Assembly: GCA_049472355.1 (NCBI GenBank) | Contig: JBLIRP010000002.1 | Coordinates: forward strand, 1,118-65,117 | Length of the DNA: 64,000 nucleotides | Source of the DNA: a bacterium | GTDB lineage: Bacteria > SZUA-182 > DTGQ01 > JAFGSM01 | Direction of reading: 5' to 3' | In this document: piece by piece, positions 11,934-62,871 of the stretch | How the letters are laid out: every line of letters starts with the position of its first letter | Position numbering within the stretch: the stretch's first letter is position 1 | Translations under genes and position numbers: made by a program | The notes under the pieces: model-generated | What the model saw: only the letters and a program-made list of their open reading frames with translations | Databases searched by the model: none | Told to the model about the DNA's origin: nothing

Positions 11934-11935
11934 CC

Positions 11936-42086: not shown

Positions 42087-42157
42087 TGGGGATTGAAATC
42101 CTTTTTGTAAGGCCATGGAAAAGCGGTCCATGCGTTGATAAGGATTAATAATGTATA

Positions 42158-44887: not shown

Positions 44888-45361
44888 TTATTCCGAATGA
44901 GAAGCGGCCCGGTAGAGTTCGATCGCTGATTTTTTAAGATCCGCCTCAGCGGCCTTTTCATCAAAGCCCACTCTTCCTACCTGGCCTTCCAGCCAGTTCT
45001 GAACCCTTTCCCTGGCGAGAACGGCCAAATCGACCTCTGCCTCCCGAGTCACCTTTTCGGCCCCGAATGAAAGCACGGTGACCCTGTTATTCTTAACCTC
45101 CAGGAATCCGCCGGCAACAACGACCCAATGGGCCTCTCCATCCTTTTCATATCGAAGGGGTGCAATAGGCAAGCGGACCAACATAGCGGCATGGTCAGCC
45201 AGAATACCGATATATTTCTCTTTGGTCAGTTCGCCTTCCTCCTGCTCACCTTCCAGGTCCCTGACCACCACAATGTCTATTTCATCATCCTTCAATACAC
45301 ACTTTTCAGGAGTGAGCACTTCGAGGGATATTTTTCCCTTCCCTTTTTTCAGCTTAGCCAT
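44888..45361 (-). CDS. atpC: F-type ATP synthase epsilon subunit (divergent, with an acidic insertion)
   Basis: 157 aa. ISLEVLTPEK..., ILADHAAML, GGFLEV.NNRVTVL. Extra EGEQEEGELTKEKY segment. Confidence 0.8.
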   Translation of the reverse strand: MAKLKKGKGKISLEVLTPEKCVLKDDEIDIVVVRDLEGEQEEGELTKEKYIGILADHAAMLVRLPIAPLRYEKDGEAHWVVVAGGFLEVKNNRVTVLSFGAEKVTREAEVDLAVLARERVQNWLEGQVGRVGFDEKAAEADLKKSAIELYRAASHSE

Positions 45362-45378
45362 AGAATCGCTTTCCCTGC

Positions 45379-46827
<1,449 letters not shown>

Positions 46828-47781: not shown

Positions 47782-47795
47782 AATTGATACCCGCT

Positions 47796-49607: not shown

Positions 49608-49973
49608 AATCCTTAGCCTTCCATCATAAGTTTCTTATTATTCAGCAGCCATATTCGACATCCCTCAGCTATTCCCCATATTCCCACTCTAAAATGATAA
49701 TGACTCTCCTCTACAAACGCCACATACTGGATTCATACGAATCAATTCTCGTAAAAATCCTCAAGGCCGATTTCATCTGTACCCGATGAAAAATAGCTGC
49801 AGAATAATTATGACAAACTCCATATTGATTAAATCGTACGATATTTACTGCAAAACATAAATTGGCTTTAAGGTATAACCCTGATAGATCCAATAACGGT
49901 TATTTTGAATCCGGCTCTTGTTATAGGCTACAACTCTGTATTCCTCTATTCCATCATAGGCTACAGCCGAAAC

Positions 49974-50002
49974 ACAAAAAACCCCCAGGAGCGGCACCCT
50001 GA
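49974..50002 (-). terminator. weak hairpin plus T6 right after the atpE stop (possible attenuator)
   Basis: The minus strand reads TGATCAGGGTGCCGCTCCTGGGGGTTTTTTGTG. Short CAGG/CCTG stem, then G4T6. Confidence 0.35.
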
Positions 50003-50443
50003 TCAAATGATCAGAATCAATGCGACAACCAGGCAATAAAGACATAATGCCTCAATGATGGCCATACCGATCAACATGGTCATAAAAAGCTTTCCCTGGA
50101 TCTCGGGCTGTCTTGACATACCTTCCAATGAGGCCATTCCGAACTTGGCAATCCCCAGGGAGGCGCCGAATGCACCCCAACCGAGCAATATGGCTGCAGC
50201 TACTGCCTTTAAAGCCTCAACCCAGGCGACTTCGCCACCCTTTGTTGTTACGATAGCTGCGGATTCTTCCGCCCATAATGCCAAGGGAGATGACAAAGCC
50301 AGTAGAATCGTATTGACAAATACAAAATAAATGGTTTTTTTGGACCGTATAACCCTTATAACCCTGTTCTTTGTGGAATTGTATAATGATGCAATAGACA
50401 TTGAGACCCTCCTTTTAATGATTAAAATAATGGAATGTTGCAT
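50003..50443 (-). CDS. atpE: F-type ATP synthase c subunit with signal-peptide-like N-terminal extension
   Basis: The C-terminal ~75 aa form a c-subunit hairpin (GASLGIAKFGMASLEGMSRQPE...MAIIEALCLYCLVVALILI). It is preceded by KKTIYFVFVNTILLALSSPLALWA|EE. The true start (50443, 50401 or later) is uncertain. Confidence 0.85.
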   Translation of the reverse strand: MQHSIILIIKRRVSMSIASLYNSTKNRVIRVIRSKKTIYFVFVNTILLALSSPLALWAEESAAIVTTKGGEVAWVEALKAVAAAILLGWGAFGASLGIAKFGMASLEGMSRQPEIQGKLFMTMLIGMAIIEALCLYCLVVALILII

Positions 50444-50466
50444 TGGTTATAAAAGGTTAACCTTGC

Positions 50467-50946
50467 TTAGGATGCCTGCCGTAGACTGTCCAATATGACC
50501 TTCTCTACAAGTTCCTTATGACCGTCCTTCTTCGCCAGATCCGGAAGCGCCCTGTAAGCGGCTGAACTGACCAGATCGATCAATTTCAGATTCGTCTCCT
50601 GGAGCAGTTCCTCCCTCTCCCTGGCGATTTCAGCACGGGCGTTTTCTATGATCTTGTCGGCCTCTTCCTTGGCCTTTGCGATGATATCATTTTTCATCTT
50701 TTCCGTTTGGTTCAAAATCTTCTGTGCATCTACCCTGCTTTGAGCAAGAATCTCATCCCGATCCCTCAATGCCTTCTCTTGTTCCTCTTTGGCGATTGCA
50801 CGTTGCCGTAACCCCTCCTCGATCTTTTCCTTTCTTGCATCCAATATCTCCATTATGGGTTTGAAGAAGAATTTTTTCATAAGAAAAAGAAGGATAAAGA
50901 AATTGACAACTAAAAATATTGTTTTTGTAAAGTCAAAGCCTATCAT
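50467..50946 (-). CDS. atpF: F-type ATP synthase b subunit
   Basis: 159 aa. One N-terminal TM (IFLVVNFFILLFLMKKFFFKPI), then a long charged coiled coil (ILDARKEKIEEGL...). Confidence 0.85.
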   Translation of the reverse strand: MIGFDFTKTIFLVVNFFILLFLMKKFFFKPIMEILDARKEKIEEGLRQRAIAKEEQEKALRDRDEILAQSRVDAQKILNQTEKMKNDIIAKAKEEADKIIENARAEIAREREELLQETNLKLIDLVSSAAYRALPDLAKKDGHKELVEKVILDSLRQAS

Positions 50947-51012
50947 CAGTTCACCCCGAGTAAAAAGTTTTTTTAACGGAAACTATTTTGTAAACAATAT
51001 TGCCTTTATCTA

Positions 51013-52293
51013 TTAATGTACGCCTAATTCTTCCTTGAAATAAAACAGACTCAGCATAACAAAGACCAAGGTCTGTATAATCGCGAAAAGGACATCCATG
51101 CAGAAGATCATAAATGGAATAAACAAGGGAACTACAAAATAATATCTCTTGATTGCAACGTCAGTAACCATCGAAAGCACACTATGCTCGCCAAATATAT
51201 TACCAAAAAGTCGCAGTGAAAGTGAAAGAAGTCTTGCTCCATTATCAACAAGATGCAGCGCAATGAGGAACAAAACAATTATTTTTACAGGAGCCTGTTT
51301 TAAGATCCCGAAGGCTATGTTTAATAATTTTGATATAGGCATCCAAACAGCGGATAAAATCTTTTTATGAAAAGTTAAAGCCCTATTCAAATACCGTAAA
51401 ATAAAGAAAACAATCAAAATAAGTGAATACATACTGACGATATTAACGATTACGGTATGCTTGAAGGGTATAAAAAGAATGAACATGATGCCGATACACA
51501 TAAGCAATGTGCCAATGCCGTAAAAAATCGAATATTTGACGAATGAAGCGTCCTCCCCGTCTTCCAATCCCGAGATCCTCAGGAAAAAGCCGACCATGGA
51601 CTCCGCAAGACACTGAATTCCCCCTGGAACATCATCTCTCTGTAGCCTTGATCGTATCCAAAAACCGAATGCCAGCAATAAAACGGTCGCCGCCACACAA
51701 TAGACAGCCATCAGTTGAAATGGCAAGGATAATAATACGGCAATATTATCGATCAAATAGAGAATCAAGAATGGAATCACGAAGAGCTTCCACATGAAGG
51801 AACCTTTTTTGGACTGCGTCCTTGAGCCTTGCCCCTCATGCCTAAAAACCTCTTCCTCATCCGAGGCCTCTTTTTTCCCAAGCCCTGGGATTGGGTCCAG
51901 CCATAATTTGGCCGCCTTTTTGGGTCCATTTAATTTTATATTGTAATACTGTAAGCCGATGACAACGATCAAGGCCAATGCAAAGGTGTTGCTCCAATCA
52001 CTGGTTGGCGGATGTGCATGAGGAATTATGAGAAAAAAATTGGAGATTAAGATAAATAGAACAAAGGTACCCAGAAACGGAAGTAAGTGAGCCAGCTTTT
52101 CCTGCCCCAGCTCCGTCCTTATAATGTTGTCCAGGGATTCTACCAGAACCTCGGCAATATTTTGAACTGAGCCGGGCGCGCCATCCTTTTGCCTGTTTTT
52201 GATCGCTAAATACGAAAAGATGAGAAGAATTGCCGATGTAATTGAACAATAGATTATTTCATAGATCCACGTTAAACCAAAATGAACATGCAT
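51013..52293 (-). CDS. atpB: F-type ATP synthase a subunit, enlarged (426 aa) by an apparent partial internal duplication
   Basis: The C-terminal half has LLSLSLRLFGNIFGEH (essential Arg) and AIIQTLVFVMLSLFY. The N-terminal half repeats the PG.Q..AE... module and has LLSLPFQLMAVY at the equivalent helix. Confidence 0.85.
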   Translation of the reverse strand: MHVHFGLTWIYEIIYCSITSAILLIFSYLAIKNRQKDGAPGSVQNIAEVLVESLDNIIRTELGQEKLAHLLPFLGTFVLFILISNFFLIIPHAHPPTSDWSNTFALALIVVIGLQYYNIKLNGPKKAAKLWLDPIPGLGKKEASDEEEVFRHEGQGSRTQSKKGSFMWKLFVIPFLILYLIDNIAVLLSLPFQLMAVYCVAATVLLLAFGFWIRSRLQRDDVPGGIQCLAESMVGFFLRISGLEDGEDASFVKYSIFYGIGTLLMCIGIMFILFIPFKHTVIVNIVSMYSLILIVFFILRYLNRALTFHKKILSAVWMPISKLLNIAFGILKQAPVKIIVLFLIALHLVDNGARLLSLSLRLFGNIFGEHSVLSMVTDVAIKRYYFVVPLFIPFMIFCMDVLFAIIQTLVFVMLSLFYFKEELGVH

Positions 52294-52404
52294 TGCTTAC
52301 TTCTATACCCTTTCTTTTATGCCGCTTGCGAGCCTTGTATGCGATTTTTGGTAAACGATTTTTATTCATATCGCCTTGAAATTCTCTCTTAAAAAACGAT
52401 TGTA

Positions 52405-52433
52405 ATGATATCAATAATACCGTTTTTTGTCAA
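52405..52433 (-). promoter_or_regulatory. sigma70 promoter of the ATP synthase operon
   Basis: The minus strand reads TTGACA (52433-52428), 17-nt spacer, TATCAT (52410-52405), about 110 nt upstream of the atpB ATG. Confidence 0.6.
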
Positions 52434-52555
52434 CACCCAAATGAACCAATTCCAAAACATAATCACGTCATTCCTTTTCCCCTCATCGCATACATTTGAG
52501 GAGGATTGATCATTCCATAGGATTTCAATACCTATTTTTATATAATATTAAATTC

Positions 52556-53094
52556 CAACTGCCCGGCGTCCTCACAGCGATTTGTACCGTCACCGGTGCC
52601 AAGGCATCATCCCTATCAGCGGCCCCTTCCCCTCACGCAGGGGGCTTTCTGACAGGTCGCAGCATGCGACTATCATCCCGGATTCCTTTGCATGAGCGAT
52701 CCCTGCACGGCCTCTCCCCATGAATATCCGTTTCGTGCAGGTCCTCACGTTGTCAAGCCCTGCACTCCGTTCTCATACGTCCATCACCTCTTACGATCAT
52801 TTACCAATCGACCATTACGAACCAGCGCCTTTTCCCGCACACCAGCTCAACCGCTTTCCTCTGGTGCGCAGGTCTTATGCGTAAAACATTCTTATGTAAG
52901 AATTCGTACGCCTCTTCCGGAAACCTTGGATTCGCCGATCGTATACGATATTTTGCATCCGCACAGATCCCCGTCGCTGGACTACTTCGAATTTGCCCTT
53001 TTGGCCTGATATCCGACCTGTCCAAAAAAATGACGCCTAAAGGAACGGTCGGGACCATCCATACCTTCAGGGACGGGAAATCTGAACCACGCAC
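52556..53094 (-). ncRNA. group II intron-like structured RNA, 5' part only (domains I-III); no IEP ORF or domain V seen
   Basis: GC-rich island in AT-rich DNA with no credible ORF. The minus strand starts GUGCG (53094-53090). It contains GAGGAAAGCGGUUGAGC and GGUAAAUGAUCGUAAGAGGUGAUGGAC, which resemble Ll.LtrB domain I (UGGAAAGCGAUGAGU; GGUAAGUUAUGGUUGUGGAC) as I recall it. Confidence 0.5.
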
Positions 53095-53129
53095 CATTTT
53101 ATCCCCTTCGATATAATTTTTATTATTTT

Positions 53130-53157
53130 AAAAGGTAGCATGATTGCTACCTTTTTT
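53130..53157. terminator. orphan bidirectional intrinsic-terminator hairpin
   Basis: AAAAGGTAGCA-TGAT-TGCTACCTTTTTT. A 7-bp stem flanked by A4 and T6. No adjacent upstream CDS on either strand. Confidence 0.6.
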
Positions 53158-53615
53158 CAGACTCTAAAAAGCACGCCTGCGACTTGCACCCTGCAGTGAA
53201 AATTTCATATCATTGTAACCATATGTTTTTTAACGTATTTTTAGCTTTGTAGAGATTATTGTTATAGGCATGCATATTGCTCCCCATAAGTGCAGCACTA
53301 CAGAAATATCCTAATCCCATAATGGCCTTATCCACCAAATAAAGATGAAGGAGGGGGGAGAATATCGAATAGAAAAGTCGATGATCTCATAATTCAATCC
53401 ATCAATTATATATCACTATTCTACGGTTTTCTTACGGCCCTTTCATGCCGAGCCTCAGCACACGCGAAGACGTTGTATTAGGGCTCATTGAATTCGTAGT
53501 TTTTATCCTTTGAATTTGTCGATCCTGTTATCATCGGCCGGAAAATAGTGTTCCAAATAGAGGGAATCAAAAGTCACTATTAAAACCTTACTATATTTAA
53601 ACAGAGGTCACGCAA

Positions 53616-54074
53616 ATGTACAGAGATAAAGATTCAACCAATAAGGCTATATTCTATACCAGGGCTGTTAACAGCCCGAAGGATACGTGGTCGATCGATA
53701 CCCAGATCAAAAGGGCGCAATCGTACGCGAAATCCACGGGTTTAAATCTGCAGGAAATATTCGTCGATGAGACGCAGGTCCCCATATACTATATAATAAA
53801 GGATAGGGCCTCCGTATCATCTCAAAAATCCTTCCAGCCCAAGAGGCTTCTTATGCCCGATTTAGTTCCGGTTTATCAAGAGGCTATGACACAACTCATT
53901 GAAATGACAGCTTTTCAGAGGATGCTCGCGTACATTCGTTCGAATCCGGTCAATGTACTTCTGATTTCAAAGCTTGAGATCTTGTTCGCAAACATGAAGG
54001 ATGCATTCAGCTTCGTTGACAATGAGCTAAATCCCCGGCGAATCGCCCTTAAGACCCTTGGTGAGATTAATTGA
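53616..54074 (+). CDS. serine-recombinase (resolvase) catalytic-domain-like protein, probably inactive, no HTH
   Basis: AIFYTRAVNSPKDTWSIDTQI...IFVDE...VLLISKLEILFANMKDA aligns by eye with YARVSTSQQSLDIQ...IFTDK...ILVKKLDRLGRD. The Ser10, Arg68 and Arg71 equivalents are not conserved. Confidence 0.55.
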   Translation: MYRDKDSTNKAIFYTRAVNSPKDTWSIDTQIKRAQSYAKSTGLNLQEIFVDETQVPIYYIIKDRASVSSQKSFQPKRLLMPDLVPVYQEAMTQLIEMTAFQRMLAYIRSNPVNVLLISKLEILFANMKDAFSFVDNELNPRRIALKTLGEIN

Positions 54075-54224: not shown

Positions 54225-54623
54225 ATGCAAATGACGAAGAATACGAGTAAAACCAAGGGAATTGTTGTCTGCAATACAACATTATGCTTAAATTGTGGTA
54301 ATTGTATTGTTGCATGCAAAAGGAGGCATAAAAATATTTCACGTCATAGAAGAGAGGGCGCGACTTTAATCGGCATAAGTTTATTTCCTGATTTATGCAG
54401 TCTATGTCAAGATGCCAAATGCATAGAAGCCTGCAATCGCAACGGGCTGGAAAGAGATGAGAATGGGTATATCATTGTTACGGACAAATGCGTAGGATGC
54501 GGTTCCTGCGCCAGGGCTTGCCCTTATAACGCCATACTGCTTTTTTCCGAGCCAGAGGGAATAGGTTCTTTTTTGGGAGACTTTGTTTCTTATATCAAAA
54601 GCTTTGTGAAAAAAAATGGATGA
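54225..54623 (+). CDS. CooF/HybA-like multi-[4Fe-4S] ferredoxin
   Basis: CLNCGNCIVAC, CSLCQDAKCIEAC, CVGCGSCARACP cysteine clusters. 132 aa. Confidence 0.85.
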   Translation: MQMTKNTSKTKGIVVCNTTLCLNCGNCIVACKRRHKNISRHRREGATLIGISLFPDLCSLCQDAKCIEACNRNGLERDENGYIIVTDKCVGCGSCARACPYNAILLFSEPEGIGSFLGDFVSYIKSFVKKNG

Positions 54624-54629
54624 GATACT

Positions 54630-55772
54630 ATGACGGAAGCCAAAATAATGCAAAAAGTGATAGTCATTTGTGATTTATCAAATTGCTTAAATTGTGGTAA
54701 CTGTATTATTGCCTGTGAACGCAGGCATAAAGATATTTCACGACATTCCCGGGTCTTTTCTACAATTATCGGGATCAGTCTATTGCCGAGTCTATGTATG
54801 GTATGTAACGATCCTAAATGCATAGAAGCTTGTAATCATGATGGAATGACAAGAGATGAACATGGTCACATCGTTGTTACGGATAATTGTATTGGTTGCG
54901 GCTTGTGTATGAGAGTTTGTCCGTATAACGCGATACTATTATTCTCAGGGGAAATCAGAAGAAGTTCATTTATGGATAAGCTCATTGATTTAATACGCCC
55001 AAACGGAAATAACATTGAGGATAATAATGGGAAAAAATCCAAGGCCATTGATTTGGAATCCGTAGAAGACATTATTGACCGACATGGAAATGGAGCTGGC
55101 TCTTTGCTGAACATCCTCAATGATATTCAAGACCATTATGGTTATTTATCCCAGGAGGTATTGAGATATGTTTCAAGAACACGTGAAATACCTCTGACAC
55201 AGATTTTCCATGTCGTTACGTTTAATCGAGGATTCAATCTCATTCAAAATCAGCGATGGGAAACCGAGGGATCAAATGGAACAACCTGGCATATAGGCGG
55301 CGCCCAAAAGATAACAGAGATGTCAAATTTCGACAACGATGGTTTTCACCTGAGGATAAATGACAAGAAATGTGTATCGTGCGGTCTCTGCGTAAAGGCA
55401 TGTGAAGAAGTAAGCGGAGCTTGTGCATTACGTTTCTCCAGACAGGTTATTTACGGAGAGGTTAAGAAGCCGTTTTTGGAATTCCCTGAGGCCTGTACCG
55501 GCTGCGGTGAGTGCGCCAAGGTATGTCCTACAAAGGCAATCACCATTGACTATGAAGTTGAAAAAATGCGATCCAAGCAGAAGGTAGTAAAATGTGACGG
55601 CTGCGCTGGATACGATGACAGGGCTTGTGTCGTTAACTGTCCAACTGGGGCACTAAAGGCAATACCGTTGGATGAATATCTTTCTCAACATAAGATATCC
55701 TACAATATAGAATTAAGAGATATGCTTAAGCAGTCACTCAAGGAAAAAGGCGAGGCTATTTCTCCTTTATAA
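54630..55772 (+). CDS. multidomain Fe-S protein: CooF-like N-terminus + NuoE-like helical segment + polyferredoxin C-terminus
   Basis: CLNCGNCIIAC, CMVCNDPKCIEAC, CIGCGLCMRVCP. LLNILNDIQDHYGYLSQEVLRYVS...HVVTF (NuoE-like, no 2Fe-2S cysteines seen). CVSCGLCVKAC, CTGCGECAKVCP, KCDGCAGYDDRACVVNCPTGAL. Confidence 0.82.
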   Translation: MTEAKIMQKVIVICDLSNCLNCGNCIIACERRHKDISRHSRVFSTIIGISLLPSLCMVCNDPKCIEACNHDGMTRDEHGHIVVTDNCIGCGLCMRVCPYNAILLFSGEIRRSSFMDKLIDLIRPNGNNIEDNNGKKSKAIDLESVEDIIDRHGNGAGSLLNILNDIQDHYGYLSQEVLRYVSRTREIPLTQIFHVVTFNRGFNLIQNQRWETEGSNGTTWHIGGAQKITEMSNFDNDGFHLRINDKKCVSCGLCVKACEEVSGACALRFSRQVIYGEVKKPFLEFPEACTGCGECAKVCPTKAITIDYEVEKMRSKQKVVKCDGCAGYDDRACVVNCPTGALKAIPLDEYLSQHKISYNIELRDMLKQSLKEKGEAISPL

Positions 55773-55872
55773 CAGCACAATAATGCAGTAAGTAGTCTTT
55801 TCTATGACCTATTATCATTGCAATTCGTTACTTTTTGATATCGCTAACTAGTATGGCTAAAGAATAAAAATA

Positions 55873-55892
55873 AGGATAAACATCCTCTTTTT
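55873..55892 (+). terminator. weak intrinsic terminator after the first Fe-S gene pair
   Basis: AGGAT-AAAC-ATCCT followed by CTTTTT. Only a 5-bp stem. Confidence 0.3.
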
Positions 55893-56125
55893 ATATATGA
55901 TCGATTCTATTCATTTATATTCATATAAGATCCACCTCAAAGTCAGTTTAAAAAATCTATTAGAGAATATCGATTCTCAAATGTAATAGACTGTTTGTAC
56001 AGAACTTTTTATTTTTTTGATCGTACATTCGTATTGGGCAGGTTATAGCTTTTGATGATTGTTTATAGTAATTAAATTCATATAGATAATGAGATAAACA
56101 ATATGATGGAGTATAAGGTGATATT

Positions 56126-57331
56126 ATGGACAAATTAATCGTTATCCTCTTATTTGAGGATGATCCTACTCATGCCGGCTTGATAAGAAAGGTATTGCAT
56201 TCCTATAACAGATCAATCGTTGTAGAGCAGGCATCGACTGCAGATGAATTTTACGACTTATTAAAAAAGGAACCAAAATACGATTTAATCATATGTGACT
56301 ATGATCTTCCAAGGAATATAGGGTTGAAGATGTTGAAGAGAACAAGAAGAGAGTTCATGTTTAAAAGGCCTATAATCGCACTGGTCGGTATGCGGTATAA
56401 GAAATTTGCAGAAGAATTGATTGCATTCGGGGCTACACGCTATCTCATTAAGACAGAAAATTTTCATAATTCTCTTCCATTGATTGTCGAGGATTGTCTA
56501 AGGGCAGGTCCTGAAATAATGGAACATGTTATTAAGAGGCATGACCAGGATTCGTTGATACGATTCAAGATTGATGGACAGGAAGTTGAGGGAGTCAAAG
56601 GGGAAACCATACTGGAAGTGGCCCGCAGGTATAGTATCAAAATACCAACCCTTTGCTATCATCCTTCAGTGAGCACGTATGGGGGGTGCCGGCTTTGCGT
56701 CGTTGAGGTGATCAAAAACAAAGGGAAACGACTGGAACCATCATGTGTATTCCCAATATCGGACGGAATCGAGGTCAAGACGGCAAGTGAAAAGGTGCTT
56801 AATACGCGAAGGTTGGTTTTGGAGCTTTTGCTGGCTCAATGTCCGAATGCAGAGATTTTAAGGAAAATTGGAGAGGTTCTTGGTTTGCAGAGTTCCCGCT
56901 TCCCTTTGAATACAGATGGTAATAAATGTATTTTATGTGGCTTATGTGTCCGAGTATGCCGGGAGGTCGTCGGATTGGGGGCTATAGGCTTTTCTCAGAG
57001 ATATCTTCATCGCGAGATAACCCCACCGTTCTGGGAGCTGTCCGAAGCCTGTTCCGGATGTGGGGAGTGCGCCAAGATATGTCCAACCGGTGCAATCACC
57101 TTGGAATACATTGATGAGAAAATACGAAAAAAACGCGGTGCTGTAGCGGTTAAGTGTGACGGATGTGCGGGGTATGGTAACAAGGCTTGTGTGATCAACT
57201 GTCCAACGGGGGCTCTGGATGTTGTTCCGTTAGAGGAGTATGTTTCCAAACACAAGATATCTTTTAATGCAGAACTCGAAGAGCTTATGGAGAATTCAAC
57301 CGAACAGGAACCTGAGGGAAAATATGAATAA
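56126..57331 (+). CDS. response-regulator receiver domain fused to NuoG/HydA-like [2Fe-2S] + [4Fe-4S] modules
   Basis: REC: LLFEDDP, LIICDYDLP, YLIK. 2Fe-2S: IRFKIDGQEV...PTLCYHPSVSTYGGCRLCVVEV...PSC. 4Fe-4S: CILCGLCVRVC, CSGCGECAKICP, KCDGCAGYGNKACVINCPTGAL. Confidence 0.85.
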   Translation: MDKLIVILLFEDDPTHAGLIRKVLHSYNRSIVVEQASTADEFYDLLKKEPKYDLIICDYDLPRNIGLKMLKRTRREFMFKRPIIALVGMRYKKFAEELIAFGATRYLIKTENFHNSLPLIVEDCLRAGPEIMEHVIKRHDQDSLIRFKIDGQEVEGVKGETILEVARRYSIKIPTLCYHPSVSTYGGCRLCVVEVIKNKGKRLEPSCVFPISDGIEVKTASEKVLNTRRLVLELLLAQCPNAEILRKIGEVLGLQSSRFPLNTDGNKCILCGLCVRVCREVVGLGAIGFSQRYLHREITPPFWELSEACSGCGECAKICPTGAITLEYIDEKIRKKRGAVAVKCDGCAGYGNKACVINCPTGALDVVPLEEYVSKHKISFNAELEELMENSTEQEPEGKYE

Positions 57332-58220
57332 GAATGCCGAGAATCAGCATACAGTCTTTCGTGTGTTTTGGGTTTTGCTAGTCATTATTATTACCTTTTA
57401 TTTATACCTGCGATACAAGGCATATTTCGCCACGCCAAGCCATTTGAGACATTTTAATCCGGTCACACTTGAGCCTAATCAGCTTCATCAAGTACTCAAG
57501 CCGTCAGGGAGTTTGGGACATGGTCTCGGTATTGCGGGGTCGATCTTAATGATTTTATGTGTGATTTTATATATTTTGAGAAAAAAAATTGAAAAGCTGG
57601 AGTCCCTGGGACCGCTTTCCTTATGGTTGGAAATACACATCTTTCTCGGCATACTGGGGCCTGTTTTGATCTTCTTTCATTCTGCTCTGAAATTTGGCGG
57701 TTTAATAGGTATTGGATTCTGGTTAATGGTAATTGCCGTCATTTCAGGGGTTCTGGGAAGAACATGTTTTGGAAAGTATTTTGGGCGTTTAACCAGGAGA
57801 TATGAGCTGTTACATAAAATCGACGTCTTTCTCGAAAGGGATTTGAAAGAGGCAAGTCAGAATTCTTCCATCATTAAAAGGACCATGGAGTTGAAATCAT
57901 CAAACTTCCCAAGCAATCTAGGCATAATAGCCGCTTTGAAGGAATGGGCATATATAAAGAAGGAAAAAAATAATCTGATGGTCTTAATAGAAAAGAAATA
58001 TGGTAATAAAGGATCAGAAGAGCATGAGACACTTAAAAAATGGGCTACCGAAGTTATTAGTAGGTTGGATGAAATAAGTGCTGTTTCTGCCTTAAACCTT
58101 CATTTATCCATAATAAATAAATGGCTCTTGATCCACGAAGTATGTAGTTATTTATTGTTTATTTTCCTTTTTATCCATGTTTTTGTAACTGCATATTGGG
58201 GATATACGTGGTTATTATAG
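57324..58220 (+). CDS. polytopic membrane protein with two H-x13-H helices (candidate di-haem b-type electron conduit)
   Basis: The start ATG overlaps the upstream stop (ATGAATAA). WLEIHIFLGILGPVLIFFHS and LLIHEVCSYLLFIFLFIHV each place two His exactly 13 residues apart within TM helices. A soluble insert of about 115 aa precedes the last TM. Confidence 0.75.
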   Translation: MNKNAENQHTVFRVFWVLLVIIITFYLYLRYKAYFATPSHLRHFNPVTLEPNQLHQVLKPSGSLGHGLGIAGSILMILCVILYILRKKIEKLESLGPLSLWLEIHIFLGILGPVLIFFHSALKFGGLIGIGFWLMVIAVISGVLGRTCFGKYFGRLTRRYELLHKIDVFLERDLKEASQNSSIIKRTMELKSSNFPSNLGIIAALKEWAYIKKEKNNLMVLIEKKYGNKGSEEHETLKKWATEVISRLDEISAVSALNLHLSIINKWLLIHEVCSYLLFIFLFIHVFVTAYWGYTWLL

Positions 58221-58331
58221 GCCTTTTTTGCTCAATGTAGGCCATAAATTGAATACAAAAAGGATGTAATTAAAAATTTGATTCAAAACTAATGCCTTTC
58301 ATTCATCTAATGTGAGCGAGGTATACCTTAA

Positions 58332-58853
58332 ATGAAAAAATATTCTTTATCCCTGCTATTATTACTCATAGTTGTTTTTTTTCTCCTTTATGCCTGTTTT
58401 CACGTAAAATGGTCAGAGATGCTTTCCCCCGGAGACCTTTCCTTGGCACATGCGGATATGGATTTGTCAGAGGACTGCCAGGCGTGCCATACGAAGGGTA
58501 AACAGATCGATAACGGAAAATGTCTGGACTGCCATGCGGAGATACAAGACAAAATGGATTTAAATCAGGGTCTCCATAGCCAGGCGTCAAGTGAATGTTT
58601 AGATTGTCATTCAGAGCATCATGGAAAGGAAACCAACATTGCTTATTTCGATGAAGATAACTTTGATCATGCCAAGACAGGGTGGTCACTGGAAGGAAGG
58701 CACACGTTGTTGAAATGTGAAGCCTGCCATATGAAAGACTCCTTCTTGCTTGACAAGGCAGATTGCATTCATTGTCATAAGGATTTTCACGAAGGCGAGT
58801 ATGGCACTGATTGTGCTGAATGCCACGATCAGGATTCATTCAGAATGGAATAG
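58332..58853 (+). CDS. hexahaem cytochrome c (paired-CxxCH / c3-c7-like), signal peptide or lipoprotein anchor
   Basis: Six CxxCH motifs: CQACH, CLDCH, CLDCH, CEACH, CIHCH, CAECH. N-terminal hydrophobic leader with a possible lipobox LYAC. Confidence 0.88.
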   Translation: MKKYSLSLLLLLIVVFFLLYACFHVKWSEMLSPGDLSLAHADMDLSEDCQACHTKGKQIDNGKCLDCHAEIQDKMDLNQGLHSQASSECLDCHSEHHGKETNIAYFDEDNFDHAKTGWSLEGRHTLLKCEACHMKDSFLLDKADCIHCHKDFHEGEYGTDCAECHDQDSFRME

Positions 58854-58873: not shown

Positions 58874-59068
58874 TTATTGATCAGGCTGCTGATAGCCCTC
58901 ATCCTCTTCGAAATTTATCAATTCCTTTTTATACTGTAACTCCTTTTCAATAACATAATTTTTCAAGGCCTCTATGATCACATCCTTTATTGGTATAGCA
59001 TCCTTCTCTGCAATAAGCTTAAGCTGTTTATAAATATTGTCATCAAGATTATTGATTTGAATCTTCAT
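58874..59068 (-). CDS. ribbon-helix-helix (CopG/Arc-like) small DNA-binding protein, antitoxin-like
   Basis: 64 aa. MKIQINNLDDNIYKQLKLIAEKDAIPIKDVIIEALKNYV fits a beta-alpha-alpha RHH layout. Acidic tail. Confidence 0.6.
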   Translation of the reverse strand: MKIQINNLDDNIYKQLKLIAEKDAIPIKDVIIEALKNYVIEKELQYKKELINFEEDEGYQQPDQ

Positions 59069-59639: not shown

Positions 59640-61355
59640 TTATTCAGCCAATATCCGCGAAATTCTTCGATTGATGTAGTTGACCTTTTTCTTTAATCTA
59701 TATTTTGTATGGATTCTGGATTCAAGCGTTCTCGCGGACTTTGTTATGACACGCACCCTGCGTGCCAAGCCTTTTGGTATCTCTTTGAATAAATTTAACA
59801 TGCAAAGCAAAAGACAAAACAGCCACGGTTTATTTAATTTAGTCGCTATGTAACTCGCGCCCTTCTCCCTTCTTTTAAGAGCCAAGTCCAATGTTCTCCC
59901 CGCTAAACTGGAGGTAAACCATTCATCCGCATTGATCATTTTCAATAATGTCTGAAAGGCGGCTATCTCTTCTTTTATCCGCTTCTTGATTTCCTCCGGT
60001 GGCTCGTTTGTTGGTTCTTGGGTAAGTAATATTTGCAGGTACTTGATAAGAAATCGGACCCTTTGCATGACTTCGTATTTTTCTCTGTTTGATAGTTCTC
60101 CTTCCAGTTTTTCGGCCAAATTTAGACGAAGTTCCTCTATCAAATCCAGCTCGTAGGCACTTGAAAACTTGAATCTTTCTCCAAACAGGGAAGGGATCCC
60201 AACAAAAATATCGGCAACCTCCTGCAATCGGTATATTTGGAGCAACTTATTGAAATTCTCCCAACACGGGAGCATGTTTGGTGTTTCTTTCGGAACGTTC
60301 GCATTGTTCCAAACCGTACTGCATGGATATAGTTTTAAGAATTGATCTATATCCACATGGTCGACATCGAGATTATATTCCTGGGTTACCCTTGGGAAGC
60401 AGGACTTGGTCAGATTCAAGAATTCCTCCCAGTTCGGGTATTTGTTCAGAAAACGGTCCAGCACGACTCCGGCTATAAGGATCATATGAAATTTAATTGT
60501 ACCGAGCTCCATTTTGATATCTGCATGAATATCACCAAGGCCGTCGGTAATCATAATGATCTCGGCCTGTCTCATATCGGGATCGTTTTTTATGTCTTTG
60601 ATGGCCGTTAGTATAGCCTCATTTATTTTTGTTTCATAACACTCGACCGTATGCAGGTTAATCAGATATCTTATGAGTTCCTTTATTTGTCCGGATTTCG
60701 TAATCTGCTGCAACTGGCCCATCTCCTGATTAAAAAAACGAAAGTATATCTGAGGGCTCTCCTTCCGGACTCTTCGAAGATATTCAATACAGATTGCCTT
60801 GGCAGCATAGAGCTTGTTCAGTTGGTCACCTTCCATGGAGCATGAATTATCAAATAGGATATAGACCTTTTGTCTCTTGTTTAATTCCTTGTCCTTTCCA
60901 TAAACCAGATCAGAAACAGATAAGCCTTCGGGATCGATGAATTTTTTCCTGTATAACTCATGATTGATGAGTTTTTTGTAAAAAAGATCCTCTGTATTGA
61001 TCAAAAATTCTCTGGGCAGGATATGCAATATTTGGCTTGTTGAAGTCACTTTTCCAATATCGACATTATCAGCCAATTCTGAATCTATAATCATATCATT
61101 TCTATCGATTTCCTCCTTCACTTTGTTGTCTTCGAAGATCCTATTTCTCTCGAGAATGGGCGCCATTCTCCCCTTGATTGGATACGCGGTATCCATTGAA
61201 AAAAGGCACCGTGCAATAAAAAATATCTTTATCCATTCCTTTGGTAGACCATCACTAACATTCCGGATATCATCCGGAAAACAATCCGGTATGTTCAAAA
61301 TATCTAAATAACACTCCGGCTCTATAAAGAACCAATGGTTAAGGAATTCATTCAT
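59640..61355 (-). CDS. von Willebrand factor A (vWA) domain protein, partner of the upstream AAA+ ATPase
   Basis: 571 aa. Central MIDAS: VYILFDNSCSM (DxSxS), ...ETK..., IIMITDGLGD. Long helical N- and C-terminal regions of unknown family. Confidence 0.82.
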   Translation of the reverse strand: MNEFLNHWFFIEPECYLDILNIPDCFPDDIRNVSDGLPKEWIKIFFIARCLFSMDTAYPIKGRMAPILERNRIFEDNKVKEEIDRNDMIIDSELADNVDIGKVTSTSQILHILPREFLINTEDLFYKKLINHELYRKKFIDPEGLSVSDLVYGKDKELNKRQKVYILFDNSCSMEGDQLNKLYAAKAICIEYLRRVRKESPQIYFRFFNQEMGQLQQITKSGQIKELIRYLINLHTVECYETKINEAILTAIKDIKNDPDMRQAEIIMITDGLGDIHADIKMELGTIKFHMILIAGVVLDRFLNKYPNWEEFLNLTKSCFPRVTQEYNLDVDHVDIDQFLKLYPCSTVWNNANVPKETPNMLPCWENFNKLLQIYRLQEVADIFVGIPSLFGERFKFSSAYELDLIEELRLNLAEKLEGELSNREKYEVMQRVRFLIKYLQILLTQEPTNEPPEEIKKRIKEEIAAFQTLLKMINADEWFTSSLAGRTLDLALKRREKGASYIATKLNKPWLFCLLLCMLNLFKEIPKGLARRVRVITKSARTLESRIHTKYRLKKKVNYINRRISRILAE

Positions 61356-61374
61356 GGATCAAAGGCCTCAGTTT

Positions 61375-62871
61375 TTATTTGGACTGCCTAAAATGAACAT
61401 CATTGAATCTTTTGACATCGTGTTCAAACCCCTCGATCAGTTCCAATGTCTCCTTCTTTATAGCCATCTCTTTGAGCAAAGAACAGCTTTCTTCGAAAAT
61501 CTCAAGCAAATGAATTAATCTTGATTTGCTCGGTCGGAACCCGATCTTATTTACAAAAGTCATCAATCTGTTTTTAATACTTGCCTCTACAAAGGAACGT
61601 TCAATTTCGTCTATGATCAACCCGAAATTCTGATGTTCTACCAATGCACCCGGATCCTTGGCGGATTTTATTGTTCGAAAAATACTCATAATATTAAATA
61701 ATCGATTTAGAAGCTGCTTATCGTCGAAAAAATATTTCTTCGTTGCATCAATGATCCCCTTTAAACGCCTTTTTTCTTCTTCCTTTCCCACGATACAGAT
61801 CAAATAATACAGGTTATTGAGGTCTCTTTCCTCCACTACTGCACGTCCGTCAAGAATTGCAGATGCCCTCAGCAGATTCTGTGTCTTTGCCGCCGTTCTG
61901 TCGCTGATCATGAAATTATAGCCGCCCTCAATCCTCTTTGACTCTTCCGTATATTTACGAATTATATAATTCTTCAGGAAAAGGATATACTCCGGAATCT
62001 TTATGGACTGTGTTTTGATCAACAGTTTAATATGATTAAGTCTTTCCAAATCCAGTGTAACATCTGATTGTCTTATTTTACCTACATTTTTTCTATAAAC
62101 CTGGTCTATTGACAATTTGTAGTATAGGTTTTTGTTTTCCATGATATAGCACTTGTATAAAAACCGATCCAGGACAGCCTCCAGCATTTCGGTCGCTCGA
62201 ATATAATTTGAAGCGGCAATAACAGTATTGAGAGGAGAATCAACTATCTGTTCACCATTTACCAGTCTTTTCTCATTCAGCAGGGTAAGAAGGGACCTCA
62301 ACAACATATCGTTAGCATCAAAGATTTCATCAAGAAAAGCAAAATCAGAGGCAACAATCGAACCCTTAATATTGTGTATCAACTTCCCTCTTTTGAGATC
62401 ATCCATGTTATAGGCACCAAACATATTATCCGGCATCGTATCTTTGGTAAGTTGCTTCTGAAATAATTTTATATCTTCGAAGGATGAAAAGATTTGTCGT
62501 GCGAGAAGGCTTTTCGCCATTCCAGTTCTTCCCAAAATTAACTGGTGCTCACCGGTCAAAATGGCATAAAAACTCTGGCGAACGATCTCTTCTCTATCCA
62601 CTATGTTTTCGCAAACGAAATTGATAATATGGTTTATCTCTCCGGTTGTTTCAAACGCAATTTGGTAGTCCGGATGGTCTATTTCGAGTATCTTATTCAA
62701 GTCCAAATCAAGACCTGTTTTTACCTTCTCCTGCTCAAGGCCCGTCATGTCATTGACTGAAGGATACTTTTGAAGCCTATCCTCCTCTTCATTCGCTTCC
62801 GTTTCTTCCGCACGGCCAATGTCTTTATAAAGATAATCTGAATCTATGCTCATAGTCTTTTCCTTTCCCAA
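61375..62871 (-). CDS. MoxR-family AAA+ ATPase, RavA-like
   Basis: LILGRTGMAKSLLARQI (compare RavA GPPGIAKS), Walker B FAFLDEIF, LLTLLNEKRLVNG...VIAASNY...LEAVLDRF. About 100-aa N-terminal and 180-aa C-terminal extensions. Confidence 0.82.
   Translation of the reverse strand: MGKEKTMSIDSDYLYKDIGRAEETEANEEEDRLQKYPSVNDMTGLEQEKVKTGLDLDLNKILEIDHPDYQIAFETTGEINHIINFVCENIVDREEIVRQSFYAILTGEHQLILGRTGMAKSLLARQIFSSFEDIKLFQKQLTKDTMPDNMFGAYNMDDLKRGKLIHNIKGSIVASDFAFLDEIFDANDMLLRSLLTLLNEKRLVNGEQIVDSPLNTVIAASNYIRATEMLEAVLDRFLYKCYIMENKNLYYKLSIDQVYRKNVGKIRQSDVTLDLERLNHIKLLIKTQSIKIPEYILFLKNYIIRKYTEESKRIEGGYNFMISDRTAAKTQNLLRASAILDGRAVVEERDLNNLYYLICIVGKEEEKRRLKGIIDATKKYFFDDKQLLNRLFNIMSIFRTIKSAKDPGALVEHQNFGLIIDEIERSFVEASIKNRLMTFVNKIGFRPSKSRLIHLLEIFEESCSLLKEMAIKKETLELIEGFEHDVKRFNDVHFRQSK

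What the first reader, a model, noticed from the sequence alone, without database searches (positions are those of the whole stretch)
54225..58853. Candidate transmembrane electron-transfer module: Fe-S proteins, a two-(H-x13-H) membrane protein and a hexahaem cytochrome c, with no attached catalytic subunit
Seen: five co-directional genes. The first is a CooF-like ferredoxin. The second is a CooF + NuoE-like + polyferredoxin fusion. The third is a REC + NuoG-like 2Fe-2S/4Fe-4S protein. The fourth is a polytopic membrane protein translationally coupled to the third (ATGAATAA overlap) and carrying two TM helices with His-x13-His. The fifth is a secreted hexahaem cytochrome c. No hydrogenase, formate dehydrogenase, molybdopterin or flavin-binding catalytic subunit is nearby. 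Known: paired His with 13-14 residue spacing on two helices is the bis-haem-b ligation pattern of cytochrome b (bc1) and ferric-reductase/NOX-type proteins. CxxCH marks covalent haem c. Inference: a cytoplasmic Fe-S wire, a b-type membrane conduit and a periplasmic multihaem wire together form a compact trans-membrane electron conduit. Its composition does not match the named complexes I know (Qrc, Hmc, Tmc, Dsr, Nrf, Cbc).
Basis: partly seen in the sequence, partly recalled or inferred. Interest (0 to 1): 0.75.

Follow-up and report, generated by a model that had tools for sequence, protein, structure and literature searches.

The report
Iron-sulfur / haem electron conduit across membrane
Five genes encode a chain of iron-sulfur proteins, a membrane protein from a large unnamed family with four invariant haem-binding histidines, and a six-haem cytochrome, which most likely carry electrons across the cell membrane without quinones; related bacteria attach an NADH-oxidising enzyme to the same core.

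Summary
In detail: five co-directional genes (54225-58853) encode Fe-S proteins, a five-helix membrane protein with two His-x13-His helices, and a hexahaem cytochrome c.

The membrane protein (g4) matches no Pfam or NCBIfam model. It belongs to a large family (4,644 clusters at 50% identity; about 589 loci in species-representative genomes) in which the four histidines are invariant in 111 sequences.

In the closest clade the core is REC-HoxU-like protein (U), membrane protein (B) and cytochrome c (C). In 9 of 13 distinct loci it sits beside a NuoF-type NADH-binding flavoprotein (F) and a CooF-NuoE protein (E).

In Bacteroidota and Ignavibacteriota, B sits beside a membrane-anchored Fe-S flavoprotein (72 of 73 loci). 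Large multihaem cytochromes and a putative outer-membrane protein follow.

The window holds a reduced variant. It has no NuoF. Gene 2 is a chimera of E and the C-terminus of U, and its NuoE 2Fe-2S cysteines are lost. All five genes are still under purifying selection (dN/dS 0.05-0.15), and two other assemblies show the same arrangement.

Best reading: a quinone-independent transmembrane electron conduit, probably exporting electrons. I found no named complex with this composition. Haem binding, direction of flow and partners are untested.

The parts
54225..54623 (+). g1: 132-aa CooF-type polyferredoxin with three 4-Cys motifs. It is a stand-alone copy of the N-terminal domain of the 'E' (CooF-NuoE) subunit of relatives.
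   Evidence: Fer4 Pfam hits. 62-64% identical to residues 1-123 of E proteins. Cys positions. dN/dS 0.055 against L010.
54630..55772 (+). g2: 380-aa chimera. Residues 1-230 correspond to the E subunit: a CooF domain plus a NuoE-like domain whose four 2Fe-2S cysteines are lost. Residues 225-376 are a paralogue of the C-terminal polyferredoxin of g3. It could hold up to six 4Fe-4S clusters.
   Evidence: BLASTP mapping. Alignment A2 shows VCxGTACH/NCLGAC replaced by EGSNGTTWH. 26 Cys. Same architecture in L010 and L094. dN/dS 0.08, 0.12 and 0.06 for the three sections.
55773..56125 (.). 353-nt AT-rich gap (27% GC) between g2 and g3. It may hold the promoter of g3-g4-g5. The gap is of similar length (321 nt) in L010.
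   Evidence: Sequence. GC content. L010 gene coordinates. The promoter scan found a consensus-like site at 56062-56090 but no enrichment over shuffles. No F or E remnants by tblastn.
56126..57331 (+). g3 ('U'): a receiver (REC) domain (residues 1-125), a HoxU/NuoG-type 2Fe-2S domain (Cys177/188/191/207) and three 4-Cys 4Fe-4S motifs (268-278, 309-319, 344-359).
   Evidence: Pfam and NCBIfam. All 16 Cys ligands are invariant in 12 orthologues. dN/dS 0.093.
57324..58220 (+). g4 ('B'): 298-aa five-helix membrane protein and predicted di-haem cytochrome b. Helices lie at about 11-33, 64-85, 98-120, 126-146 and 267-291, with a roughly 120-residue basic cytoplasmic helical insert between helices 4 and 5.
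   Evidence: 8-nt overlap with g3. Hydropathy and charge distribution. 133 homologues. 4,644 clusters. AlphaFold model of a homologue with pLDDT 86.5. dN/dS 0.052.
57636..57680 (+). Codons for His105 (57636-57638) to His119 (57678-57680) on helix 3: His-x13-His.
   Evidence: Sequence. Invariant in A1 and A5.
58134..58178 (+). Codons for His271 (58134-58136) to His285 (58176-58178) on helix 5: His-x13-His.
   Evidence: Sequence. Invariant in A1 and A5. This helix gives the weak DUF4405 and Ni_hydr_CYTB matches.
58332..58853 (+). g5 ('C'): 173-aa hexahaem cytochrome c with an N-terminal signal or anchor helix. It has six CxxCH motifs plus six further invariant His, which suggests six bis-His haems.
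   Evidence: Pfam Cytochrome_C7 and Cytochrom_CIII. Alignment A4. Homologous to the N-terminal module of the first multihaem cytochrome of the Bacteroidota clusters (35% identity, E 9e-29). dN/dS 0.15.

Best explanation
The five genes encode a quinone-independent transmembrane electron conduit.

Proposed path:
1. Cytoplasmic Fe-S proteins carry electrons to the inner face of the membrane protein g4. These are g3 (one 2Fe-2S plus up to three 4Fe-4S clusters) and g1/g2 (up to nine 4Fe-4S clusters).
2. g4 binds two b-haems stacked across the membrane. His105 and His271 hold the haem near the cytoplasm. His119 and His285 hold the haem near the periplasm.
3. The periplasmic haem reduces the six-haem cytochrome g5, which sits at the outer face of the membrane and passes electrons to periplasmic acceptors.

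The last 4-Cys motif of g3 and g2 (KCDGCAGY-N-ACV-NCPTGAL) is probably the cluster that docks on g4. In natural fusions this motif lies about 60 residues before helix 1 of the membrane protein.

The ancestral, complete system has a NuoE/NuoF-type NADH-oxidising flavoprotein as its input. This lineage has lost it and instead carries duplicated ferredoxin-like input modules. Here the electrons probably come from reduced ferredoxin or another soluble oxidoreductase.

I favour outward flow, that is electron export for redox balancing or for a periplasmic or extracellular acceptor. Moving electrons outward runs with the membrane potential, so the conduit would dissipate rather than build proton-motive force.

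Shown here: gene content, conservation, synteny, the natural fusion and purifying selection.
Inferred: haem binding, the order of cofactors, the direction of flow, and the donor and acceptor.
For: - Four His are invariant in 111 homologues, and both His-bearing helices run in the same direction, so the pairs can form two haem sites.
- The only profile similarities, all sub-threshold, are to di-haem b families. DUF4405 has been shown to bind haem b (PMC11334425).
- Topology: the N-terminus and the basic 120-residue loop are cytoplasmic (22 K/R). This agrees with the natural N-terminal Fe-S fusion P0024, seen in three assemblies.
- The U-B start/stop overlap and the adjacent C gene are kept in all close relatives.
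- B with a Fe-S flavoprotein is found in 72 of 73 Bacteroidota/Ignavibacteriota loci, and with a multihaem cytochrome in 68 of 73.
- g5 is homologous to the first module of that cytochrome.
- NuoF (408 bits against a cutoff of 389) and HoxE/NuoE lie in 9 of 13 close-clade loci.
- All Cys ligands of g3, and all six CxxCH motifs and six distal His of g5, are invariant.
- dN/dS is 0.05-0.15 for all five genes.
Against: - There is no experimental evidence of haem binding or of a complex.
- g4 does not reach the threshold of any curated cytochrome b model.
- A confident model of a homologue (pLDDT 86.5) has no significant structural match in the PDB (best E 0.44, TM at most 0.24), so the fold assignment is open.
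- The direction of flow rests only on thermodynamic reasoning.
- The electron donor of this NuoF-less variant and the acceptor of g5 are unknown.
- No outer-membrane component is nearby.
- A quinone site in g4 cannot be excluded.
Confidence: 0.6

Rival explanations
1. Same conduit, opposite direction. Electrons from periplasmic donors (for example cytochrome c3-type carriers reduced by periplasmic hydrogenase or formate dehydrogenase, or by an external donor) enter through g5 and g4 and reduce cytoplasmic Fe-S proteins. This would be a charge-separating redox loop, as proposed for Tmc and Hmc in sulfate reducers.
For: g5 falls in the class III/c7 cytochrome families typical of low-potential periplasmic carriers, and all six haems appear to be bis-His. 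This variant lacks NuoF, so the cytoplasmic partner need not be NAD+. Inward electron flow would conserve energy (established bioenergetics of redox loops).
Against: In most relatives the cytoplasmic end is an NADH-binding NuoF or an NAD(P)H-type flavoprotein. Reducing NAD+ from c-type haems against the membrane potential is unfavourable (inference). In Bacteroidota the periplasmic side continues into 19-20-haem cytochromes and a putative outer-membrane protein, the layout of export conduits (PMC4245776). No periplasmic hydrogenase or formate dehydrogenase is nearby.
Confidence: 0.2
2. g4 is a quinone-reactive cytochrome b like FdnI/HydC, CybB or CbcL. The genes would then encode a quinone reductase (Fe-S side) and/or a quinol:cytochrome c oxidoreductase (g5 side), not a straight-through wire.
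For: The last helix gives weak matches to Ni_hydr_CYTB, the family of quinone-reactive FdnI/HydC/cytochrome b561 proteins (13 of 22 members, best E 3e-5). Most known bacterial di-haem b subunits react with quinones (established knowledge).
Against: All such matches are below threshold and cover only one helix. Redox partners are conserved on both faces of the membrane, and a direct Fe-S fusion exists, which makes a quinone intermediate unnecessary. No quinone-site motif could be tested.
Confidence: 0.12
3. The module is a redox sensor rather than a bulk electron pathway. The receiver domain of g3 links the redox state of the Fe-S and haem chain to two-component signalling.
For: g3 carries a receiver domain above the Pfam threshold, with an Asp at the canonical acceptor position in this window (D58) and the conserved Lys109. 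Histidine kinases and sigma-54 response regulators lie downstream of the cluster in L001, L002 and L004.
Against: The acceptor Asp is replaced by N, E, T or S in 10 of 12 orthologues, so phosphorylation is not a conserved property. g3 has no output (DNA-binding or enzymatic) domain other than the Fe-S domains. Up to about 13 Fe-S clusters, 2 b-haems and 6 c-haems, together with NuoF in relatives, point to a pathway, not a sensor. Kinase genes are absent near the cluster in the window.
Confidence: 0.05
4. The locus is a decaying remnant of an E-F-U-B-C cluster, left non-functional after the loss of NuoF and the scrambling of E.
For: NuoF is absent. The NuoE cluster ligands in g2 are lost, and g1 and g2 look like products of duplication and recombination. 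A resolvase-like fragment and a GC shift lie nearby.
Against: All five reading frames are intact. dN/dS is 0.05-0.15 at dS of about 1 against L010, including the NuoE relic (0.12). The same architecture is kept in L010 and L094. Other NuoF-less variants exist, such as the P0024 fusion.
Confidence: 0.03

Closest known systems
TmcABCD (and the related Hmc and DsrMKJOP) transmembrane redox complexes of sulfate reducers
   Same: Three-layer design: a periplasmic class III-type multihaem cytochrome c, an integral-membrane cytochrome b and a cytoplasmic Fe-S protein. Electrons cross the membrane without a catalytic site in the membrane subunit.
   Different: - The membrane subunit here is not NarI/HdrE-like (no such Pfam match even at E up to 10).
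- The cytoplasmic subunits are HoxU/NuoG-type and CooF-type, not CCG-domain HdrD-like proteins.
- The cytochrome has six haems.
- There is no TmcD, NrfD-type or periplasmic Fe-S subunit.
- Relatives add a NuoEF NADH module.
Ferric-reductase-domain proteins (NOX, FRE, MsrQ with Fre) and DUF4405 cytochromes
   Same: Two b-haems held by two His pairs about 13 residues apart on two parallel helices separated by one helix. The N-terminus is cytoplasmic. Electrons come from a cytoplasmic NAD(P)H-linked flavoprotein and leave on the outside. Weak profile similarity exists. DUF4405 was shown to bind haem b (PMC11334425).
   Different: - It falls below every family threshold.
- It has five helices rather than six.
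- A 120-residue cytoplasmic helical insert lies between helices 4 and 5.
- Foldseek finds no match to solved NOX, STEAP or b561 structures.
- The donor is an Fe-S wire and the acceptor is a multihaem cytochrome c.
HoxEFU diaphorase, the NuoEFG N-module of complex I, and HydABC/Bfu-type enzymes
   Same: g3 is homologous to the 2Fe-2S plus 4Fe-4S N-terminal part of HoxU, NuoG and HydA. The E and F subunits of relatives are HoxE/NuoE and NuoF. F carries the extra N-terminal 2Fe-2S and C-terminal 2x[4Fe-4S] domains seen in HydB.
   Different: - The window has no F and only a cluster-less NuoE relic.
- g3 lacks the His(Cys)3 cluster site and carries a receiver domain.
- The module is wired to a membrane cytochrome b and a cytochrome c, not to a hydrogenase or the complex I Q-module.
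Geobacter inner-membrane cytochromes CbcL, CbcBA and ImcH
   Same: A membrane b-type or c-type cytochrome next to or fused with a multihaem cytochrome c, at the start of an extracellular electron transfer route.
   Different: Those proteins are quinol oxidases with no cytoplasmic Fe-S partner, and the b domains of CbcL and CbcB are of the HydC/FdnI or bc type. Here a conserved cytoplasmic Fe-S or flavoprotein partner replaces the quinol pool as donor (inferred).

Membership tests
Di-haem cytochrome b families (Ferric_reduct PF01794, DUF4405 PF14358, Ni_hydr_CYTB PF01292) | Two His pairs on two transmembrane helices at a spacing that spans the membrane (about 13 residues), conserved across the family | tested here: met
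   H105/H119 and H271/H285 are invariant in 22 sequences and in 111 sequences. Both helices are predicted to run in-to-out.
Di-haem cytochrome b families (Ferric_reduct PF01794, DUF4405 PF14358, Ni_hydr_CYTB PF01292) | Profile match at or above the curated gathering score | tested here: not met
   The window protein scores 15.9 bits against DUF4405 (cutoff 26.7) and 11.5 bits against Ni_hydr_CYTB (cutoff 30.1). The best member E-values are 1.3e-4, 3.2e-5 and 8e-3, covering mainly the last helix.
Di-haem cytochrome b families (Ferric_reduct PF01794, DUF4405 PF14358, Ni_hydr_CYTB PF01292) | Fold similarity to a solved member (NOX5, STEAP, b561, FdnI, CybB) | tested here: not met
   Foldseek against the PDB gave a best E of 0.5 for the g4 model (pLDDT 73) and 0.44 for the homologue model (pLDDT 86.5, pTM 0.77), with TM-scores at most 0.28. 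A profile search of PDB sequences found nothing relevant. Foldseek is weak on helical bundles, so this lowers but does not exclude relatedness.
Di-haem cytochrome b families (Ferric_reduct PF01794, DUF4405 PF14358, Ni_hydr_CYTB PF01292) | Binds two non-covalent b-haems | not testable with these tools
   This needs expression and a pyridine haemochrome assay or spectroscopy.
TmcABCD / HmcABCDEF / DsrMKJOP / QrcABCD / NrfCD | Membrane subunit of the NarI/HdrE type (Tmc, Hmc, Dsr) or the NrfD type (Qrc, Nrf, Hmc, Dsr) | tested here: not met
   No such family appears among the Pfam matches of 22 members, even at E up to 10. NCBIfam gives no match for g4.
TmcABCD / HmcABCDEF / DsrMKJOP / QrcABCD / NrfCD | Cytoplasmic CCG-domain (HdrD-like) Fe-S subunit, or equivalog-level matches to DsrO, HmcB, QrcC or NrfC | tested here: not met
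   g1-g3 have no CCG domain. DsrO scores 41.7 bits against a cutoff of 200, HmcB 25.9 against 420 and NrfC 33.4 against 378.
HoxEFU / NuoEFG-type NADH dehydrogenase module | NuoF/HoxF subunit with an FMN and NADH site | tested here: not met
   tblastn of a relative's NuoF against the whole window hits only Fer4 segments. The subunit is present in 9 of 13 close-clade loci.
HoxEFU / NuoEFG-type NADH dehydrogenase module | NuoE/HoxE thioredoxin-like 2Fe-2S domain with its four Cys | tested here: not met
   g2 matches only profile positions 2-87 of 145, and all four Cys columns are substituted. They are intact in the E proteins of relatives.
HoxEFU / NuoEFG-type NADH dehydrogenase module | HoxU/NuoG N-terminal 2Fe-2S plus 4Fe-4S ferredoxin domains | tested here: met
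   g3 scores Fer2_4 61.2 bits, Fer4_Nqo3 28.9 bits, HoxU E 7e-38 and NuoG E 8e-28. These are domain-level matches below the whole-protein equivalog cutoffs. All ligand Cys are invariant, and the His(Cys)3 site is absent.
Response-regulator receiver domain (g3 N-terminus) | Profile match plus the phospho-acceptor Asp, acidic pocket, Thr/Ser and Lys | tested here: inconclusive
   Response_reg scores 51.8 bits against a cutoff of 30.2. E11/D12/D13, D58 and K109 are present in the window. The acceptor position is N, E, T or S in 10 of 12 orthologues, and the Thr/Ser position is hydrophobic.
Geobacter Cbc-type inner-membrane cytochromes | b-type domain of the HydC/FdnI (PF01292) or cytochrome bc type above threshold, acting as a quinol oxidase without a cytoplasmic partner | tested here: not met
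   PF01292 matches only below threshold. A conserved cytoplasmic Fe-S partner is present. Quinol oxidase activity is not testable here.

The most novel reading that the evidence does not exclude
The g4 family is a previously unrecognised class of di-haem cytochrome b. It would form a quinone-independent route from cytoplasmic NAD(P)H or ferredoxin directly to periplasmic multihaem cytochromes.

In Bacteroidota and Ignavibacteriota it would be the missing inner-membrane entry point of porin-cytochrome extracellular electron transfer conduits. In the window's clade it would couple a HydB/Bfu-like NuoEF module, possibly electron-bifurcating, to the membrane.

The window would show that the input module is exchangeable: NuoEF is replaced by duplicated ferredoxin-like subunits, with a receiver domain as a possible gate.
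Probability: 0.4. Interest if true: 0.85.

Novelty: new variant of a known kind. Interest (0 to 1): 0.72.

Why it matters
Known routes that take respiratory or fermentative electrons out of Gram-negative cells start at the quinone pool (CymA, CbcL, ImcH, NetBCD). Known quinone-independent transmembrane complexes (Tmc, Hmc, Dsr) use NarI- or NrfD-type subunits.

Here a different, unannotated membrane protein family is found with strictly conserved partners on both faces of the membrane: NAD(P)H-type flavo-Fe-S proteins inside and multihaem cytochromes outside. The family comprises thousands of sequence clusters and hundreds of loci in species-representative genomes.

If it works as proposed, it would:
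- give a direct NAD(P)H-to-cytochrome export valve;
- explain how many Bacteroidota and Ignavibacteriota feed their porin-cytochrome clusters;
- supply a compact, modular part set (one Fe-S subunit, one membrane subunit, one small cytochrome) that can be tested in vitro.

The window's reduced variant is a natural experiment on which parts are dispensable.

Tried and rejected
- **Curated families for g4.** Pfam and NCBIfam give no hit at normal thresholds.
- **Fold assignment.** Two AlphaFold models were searched against the PDB with Foldseek. The first was g4 with 22 sequences (pLDDT 73). The second was the short homologue P0092 with 111 sequences (pLDDT 86.5). Neither gave a significant hit. 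I could not read model coordinates, so His-His distances were not measured.
- **Profile searches of PDB sequences.** The full alignment and an insert-free core alignment gave only chance hits to coiled-coil proteins and aquaporin.
- **Apparent fusions.** P0263 (g4-like plus cytochrome c) and P0229 (g4-like plus Pyr_redox) looked like Rosetta-stone evidence. Their sequences contain low-complexity frameshift stretches, so I treat them as merged gene calls that show adjacency only.
- **g2 C-terminus.** I first guessed it came from NuoF. BLAST shows it is a paralogue of the C-terminus of g3.
- **Remnants of NuoF.** None were found in the 353-nt gap or elsewhere in the window.
- **RNA and signal scans.** Rfam found nothing in the window. 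The promoter/terminator scan was no better than shuffles.
- **Source organism.** The window's proteins map to a 99,251-bp NCBI contig without a name. The closest relatives are labelled only 'bacterium' or 'Pseudomonadota bacterium' MAGs.
- **Literature.** Eight full-text searches found no description of this gene set. This covers only the held library.

Full report
**1. Observation**

The five ORFs exist as described.
- g1 (54225-54623, 132 aa) is a CooF-type ferredoxin with three 4-Cys motifs.
- g2 (54630-55772, 380 aa) has a CooF-like N-terminus, a partial NuoE-type match and a C-terminal polyferredoxin.
- g3 (56126-57331, 401 aa) combines a receiver domain, a HoxU/NuoG-type 2Fe-2S domain and 4Fe-4S motifs.
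- g4 starts at the ATG at 57324, 8 nt inside g3 (ATGAATAA), preceded by GAGGGA. It encodes a 298-aa protein with five hydrophobic helices and His105-x13-His119 and His271-x13-His285.
- g5 (58332-58853, 173 aa) has an N-terminal hydrophobic helix and six CxxCH motifs.

No NuoF-like, hydrogenase, formate dehydrogenase or molybdopterin gene lies in the window. The flanks hold an ATP synthase operon and a MoxR/VWA pair. An independent assembly (L094) carries an identical g3 with the same neighbours.

**2. The membrane protein**

g4 matches no Pfam or NCBIfam model, yet it has 133 word-indexed homologues. An exhaustive profile search finds 4,644 clusters at 50% identity with E up to 1e-3, of which 869 have E up to 1e-30. 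About 589 loci in species-representative genomes encode a relative.

His105, His119, His271 and His285 are invariant in 22 sequences down to 27% identity and in 111 sequences.

Hydropathy and charge place the N-terminus and the basic 120-residue loop (22 K/R) in the cytoplasm. Both His-bearing helices then run in-to-out. His105 and His271 lie near the cytoplasm, and His119 and His285 near the periplasm. This is the geometry needed for two stacked bis-His haems. A natural fusion (P0024, 499 aa, seen in three assemblies) puts a signal-less Fe-S domain directly in front of helix 1, which independently supports a cytoplasmic N-terminus.

At relaxed thresholds the only recurring Pfam similarities are to di-haem b families: DUF4405 (22 of 22 members), Ni_hydr_CYTB (13 of 22) and Ferric_reduct (11 of 22). 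All are below the gathering score and centred on the last helix. DUF4405 proteins were shown to bind haem b and to resemble MsrQ (PMC11334425).

A confident AlphaFold model of the short homologue P0092 (pLDDT 86.5, pTM 0.77) has no significant Foldseek match in the PDB. The family is therefore structurally uncharacterised.

**3. Relatives and gene neighbourhoods**

The close clade (46-89% identity to g4) consists of unclassified MAGs from anoxic sites, with 36-49% GC. Its conserved cluster has five parts:
- E: CooF plus HoxE/NuoE, about 285 aa.
- F: NuoF, 408 bits against a cutoff of 389, with an extra N-terminal 2Fe-2S domain and a C-terminal 2x[4Fe-4S] domain as in HydB.
- U: the g3 type.
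- B: the g4 type.
- C: the g5 type, with six or nine haems.

The cluster occurs in four gene orders, and F is present in 9 of 13 distinct loci. The U and B genes overlap or abut in all of them.

In Bacteroidota and Ignavibacteriota (about 30% identity), B is followed by a membrane-anchored Fer4 plus YpdA/thioredoxin-reductase-like flavoprotein in 72 of 73 loci. The one exception has only 187 bp of contig left. A 20-haem cytochrome (haems counted in the Labilibaculum locus L003) follows in 68 of 73 loci. After it come a second, variable multihaem cytochrome and a roughly 535-aa protein with a signal peptide and a C-terminal Phe.

g5 is homologous to the first module of that 20-haem cytochrome (35% identity, E 9e-29). 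It shares the SPG-LS-x-H motif that follows the N-terminal helix.

Geobacter-like porin-cytochrome clusters have been reported in Ignavibacteria. The papers I read assume a quinol link and do not mention this membrane protein or the flavoprotein (PMC4245776; PMC7399161).

**4. What is special about the window**

The window is a reduced variant.
- g1 equals residues 1-125 of E (62-64% identity).
- g2 is a chimera of E(1-230) and the C-terminal polyferredoxin of U (about 50% identity to g3 residues 246-398).
- In g2 the NuoE motif VCxGTACH...NCLGAC is replaced by EGSNGTTWH, so the 2Fe-2S cluster is gone.
- F is absent from the whole 64 kb.

This is not decay. L010 (g4 89% identical) has the same architecture. 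At dS of about 1, dN/dS is 0.055 (g1), 0.092 (g2), 0.093 (g3), 0.052 (g4) and 0.153 (g5), and 0.12 for the NuoE relic alone.

Other NuoF-less variants exist: the Fer4-B fusion P0024 with C, and an E-like protein with B in L018.

**5. Cofactor inventory (from sequence)**

- g3: a 2Fe-2S site (Cys177/188/191/207) and three 4-Cys motifs, all invariant in 12 orthologues. The NuoG His(Cys)3 site is absent.
- g2: up to six 4Fe-4S clusters. g1: up to three.
- g4: two b-haems (inferred).
- g5: six CxxCH motifs plus six further invariant His, which suggests six bis-His haems.

The receiver domain of g3 has the acidic pocket, Lys109 and, in this window and L010, an Asp at the acceptor position (D58). 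The other 10 orthologues have N, E, T or S there. Phosphorylation is therefore not a conserved requirement, and the domain may be structural or regulatory in another way.

**6. Mechanism**

The best-supported reading is a quinone-independent conduit: cytoplasmic Fe-S chain, then the cytoplasm-side haem b, then the periplasm-side haem b, then the hexahaem c.

The last Fe-S motif of U and of g2 (KCDGCAGY-N-ACV-NCPTGAL) directly precedes B in the natural fusion, so it is the likely docking cluster. In the window both g3 and g2 end with this module and could be alternative inputs (inference).

Direction is not shown. I favour export for three reasons:
1. Relatives place NADH- or NAD(P)H-type flavoproteins inside.
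2. The Bacteroidota clusters continue outward into large cytochromes and a putative outer-membrane protein.
3. Outward electron movement runs with the membrane potential, whereas reducing NAD+ from c-haems against it is unfavourable (inference from standard potentials).

Such a valve would dissipate proton-motive force. It would suit NAD+ or ferredoxin regeneration rather than energy conservation. In this NuoF-less variant, inward flow to an unknown cytoplasmic acceptor cannot be excluded.

**7. Comparison with known systems**

By design it is closest to TmcABCD (cytochrome c3, cytochrome b and a cytoplasmic Fe-S protein) and to NOX/MsrQ-type ferric-reductase-domain systems (NAD(P)H flavoprotein, two b-haems, outside acceptor). 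By homology, g3 and the E and F subunits belong to the HoxEFU/NuoEFG/HydABC lineage.

It is not a member of Tmc, Hmc, Dsr, Qrc, Nrf or Cbc. The membrane subunit is neither NarI-, NrfD- nor FdnI-type at threshold. No CCG protein is present. All equivalog scores are far below cutoff.

**8. Novelty and limits**

I found no name or description for this gene set in curated profile libraries or in the held literature. The kind of system, a b-haem transmembrane redox complex, is known. The membrane family, the subunit combination and the direct wiring of a NuoEF/HoxU module or a flavoprotein to multihaem cytochromes appear new.

Everything rests on sequence, conservation and synteny. Haem binding, complex formation, direction, donor and acceptor are untested. 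The source organism is unidentified.

Noticed in passing
window 1-64000, boundary near 41500-44500: G+C falls from about 55% (1-41 kb) to 33-41% (42-44.5 kb). It rises to about 50% over the ATP synthase F1 genes and stays near 40% from 50 kb onward. Relatives that carry the cluster are 36-49% GC throughout. The 3' part of the window may be acquired DNA, or the contig may be composite.
   Followed up: partly
window 53616-54074 (+): A 152-aa ORF with a weak, partial resolvase match lies just upstream of g1. L002 has a resolvase-like gene and an ATP synthase c gene in the same position relative to its U-B-C genes. This shared synteny hints at a mobile or recombined region.
   Followed up: partly
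window 44888-52293 (-): An unusual F-type ATP synthase operon in the order a-b-c-alpha-gamma-beta-epsilon. The a subunit is 426 aa with its ATP-synt_A match split in two. The c subunit is 146 aa with an 80-aa N-terminal extension. The alpha subunit is 603 aa with a 125-aa N-terminal extension. No separate delta gene is present.
   Followed up: partly
window 52300-53600: About 1.3 kb between the ATP synthase a gene and the resolvase-like ORF has only short overlapping ORFs on both strands and no Rfam match.
   Followed up: no
window 9828-12755 (+): A NapC/NirT-type membrane-anchored multihaem cytochrome c (272 aa) is followed by two ORFs (260 and 401 aa) without Pfam matches. This is a second, unrelated candidate electron-transfer locus in the high-GC part.
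   Followed up: no
window 59640-62871 (-): A bpMoxR-type AAA ATPase (498 aa) and a VWA-domain protein (571 aa) lie downstream of the cluster. L012 has a 567-aa protein in the same position, so this neighbour may be conserved in the window's subclade.
   Followed up: no
window 58874-59068 (-): A 64-aa ORF convergent with g5 is also called, at the same length and position, in L010 and L011.
   Followed up: no
L021-L093 (for example L003 8001-15367, Labilibaculum antarcticum): A strictly conserved Bacteroidota/Ignavibacteriota cluster. It runs: g4-like protein, then a TM-anchored Fer4 plus YpdA/TrxR-like flavoprotein, then a multihaem cytochrome of about 530 aa (20 haems in Labilibaculum, L003), then a variable cytochrome of 340-1,500 aa, then a roughly 535-aa putative outer-membrane protein. 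It looks like a complete cytoplasm-to-surface electron route.
   Followed up: partly
L001 4920-6776 and other F genes of relatives: The NuoF-type subunit in relatives has the extra N-terminal 2Fe-2S domain and C-terminal 2x[4Fe-4S] domain characteristic of HydB in electron-bifurcating HydABC/Bfu enzymes. This raises the possibility of a membrane-linked bifurcating enzyme.
   Followed up: no
window 56126-56500 (g3 receiver domain); alignment A3: The canonical phospho-acceptor Asp is present only in the window and L010. The other ten orthologues have N, E, T or S, while an Asp two residues later (D60) is nearly invariant.
   Followed up: partly
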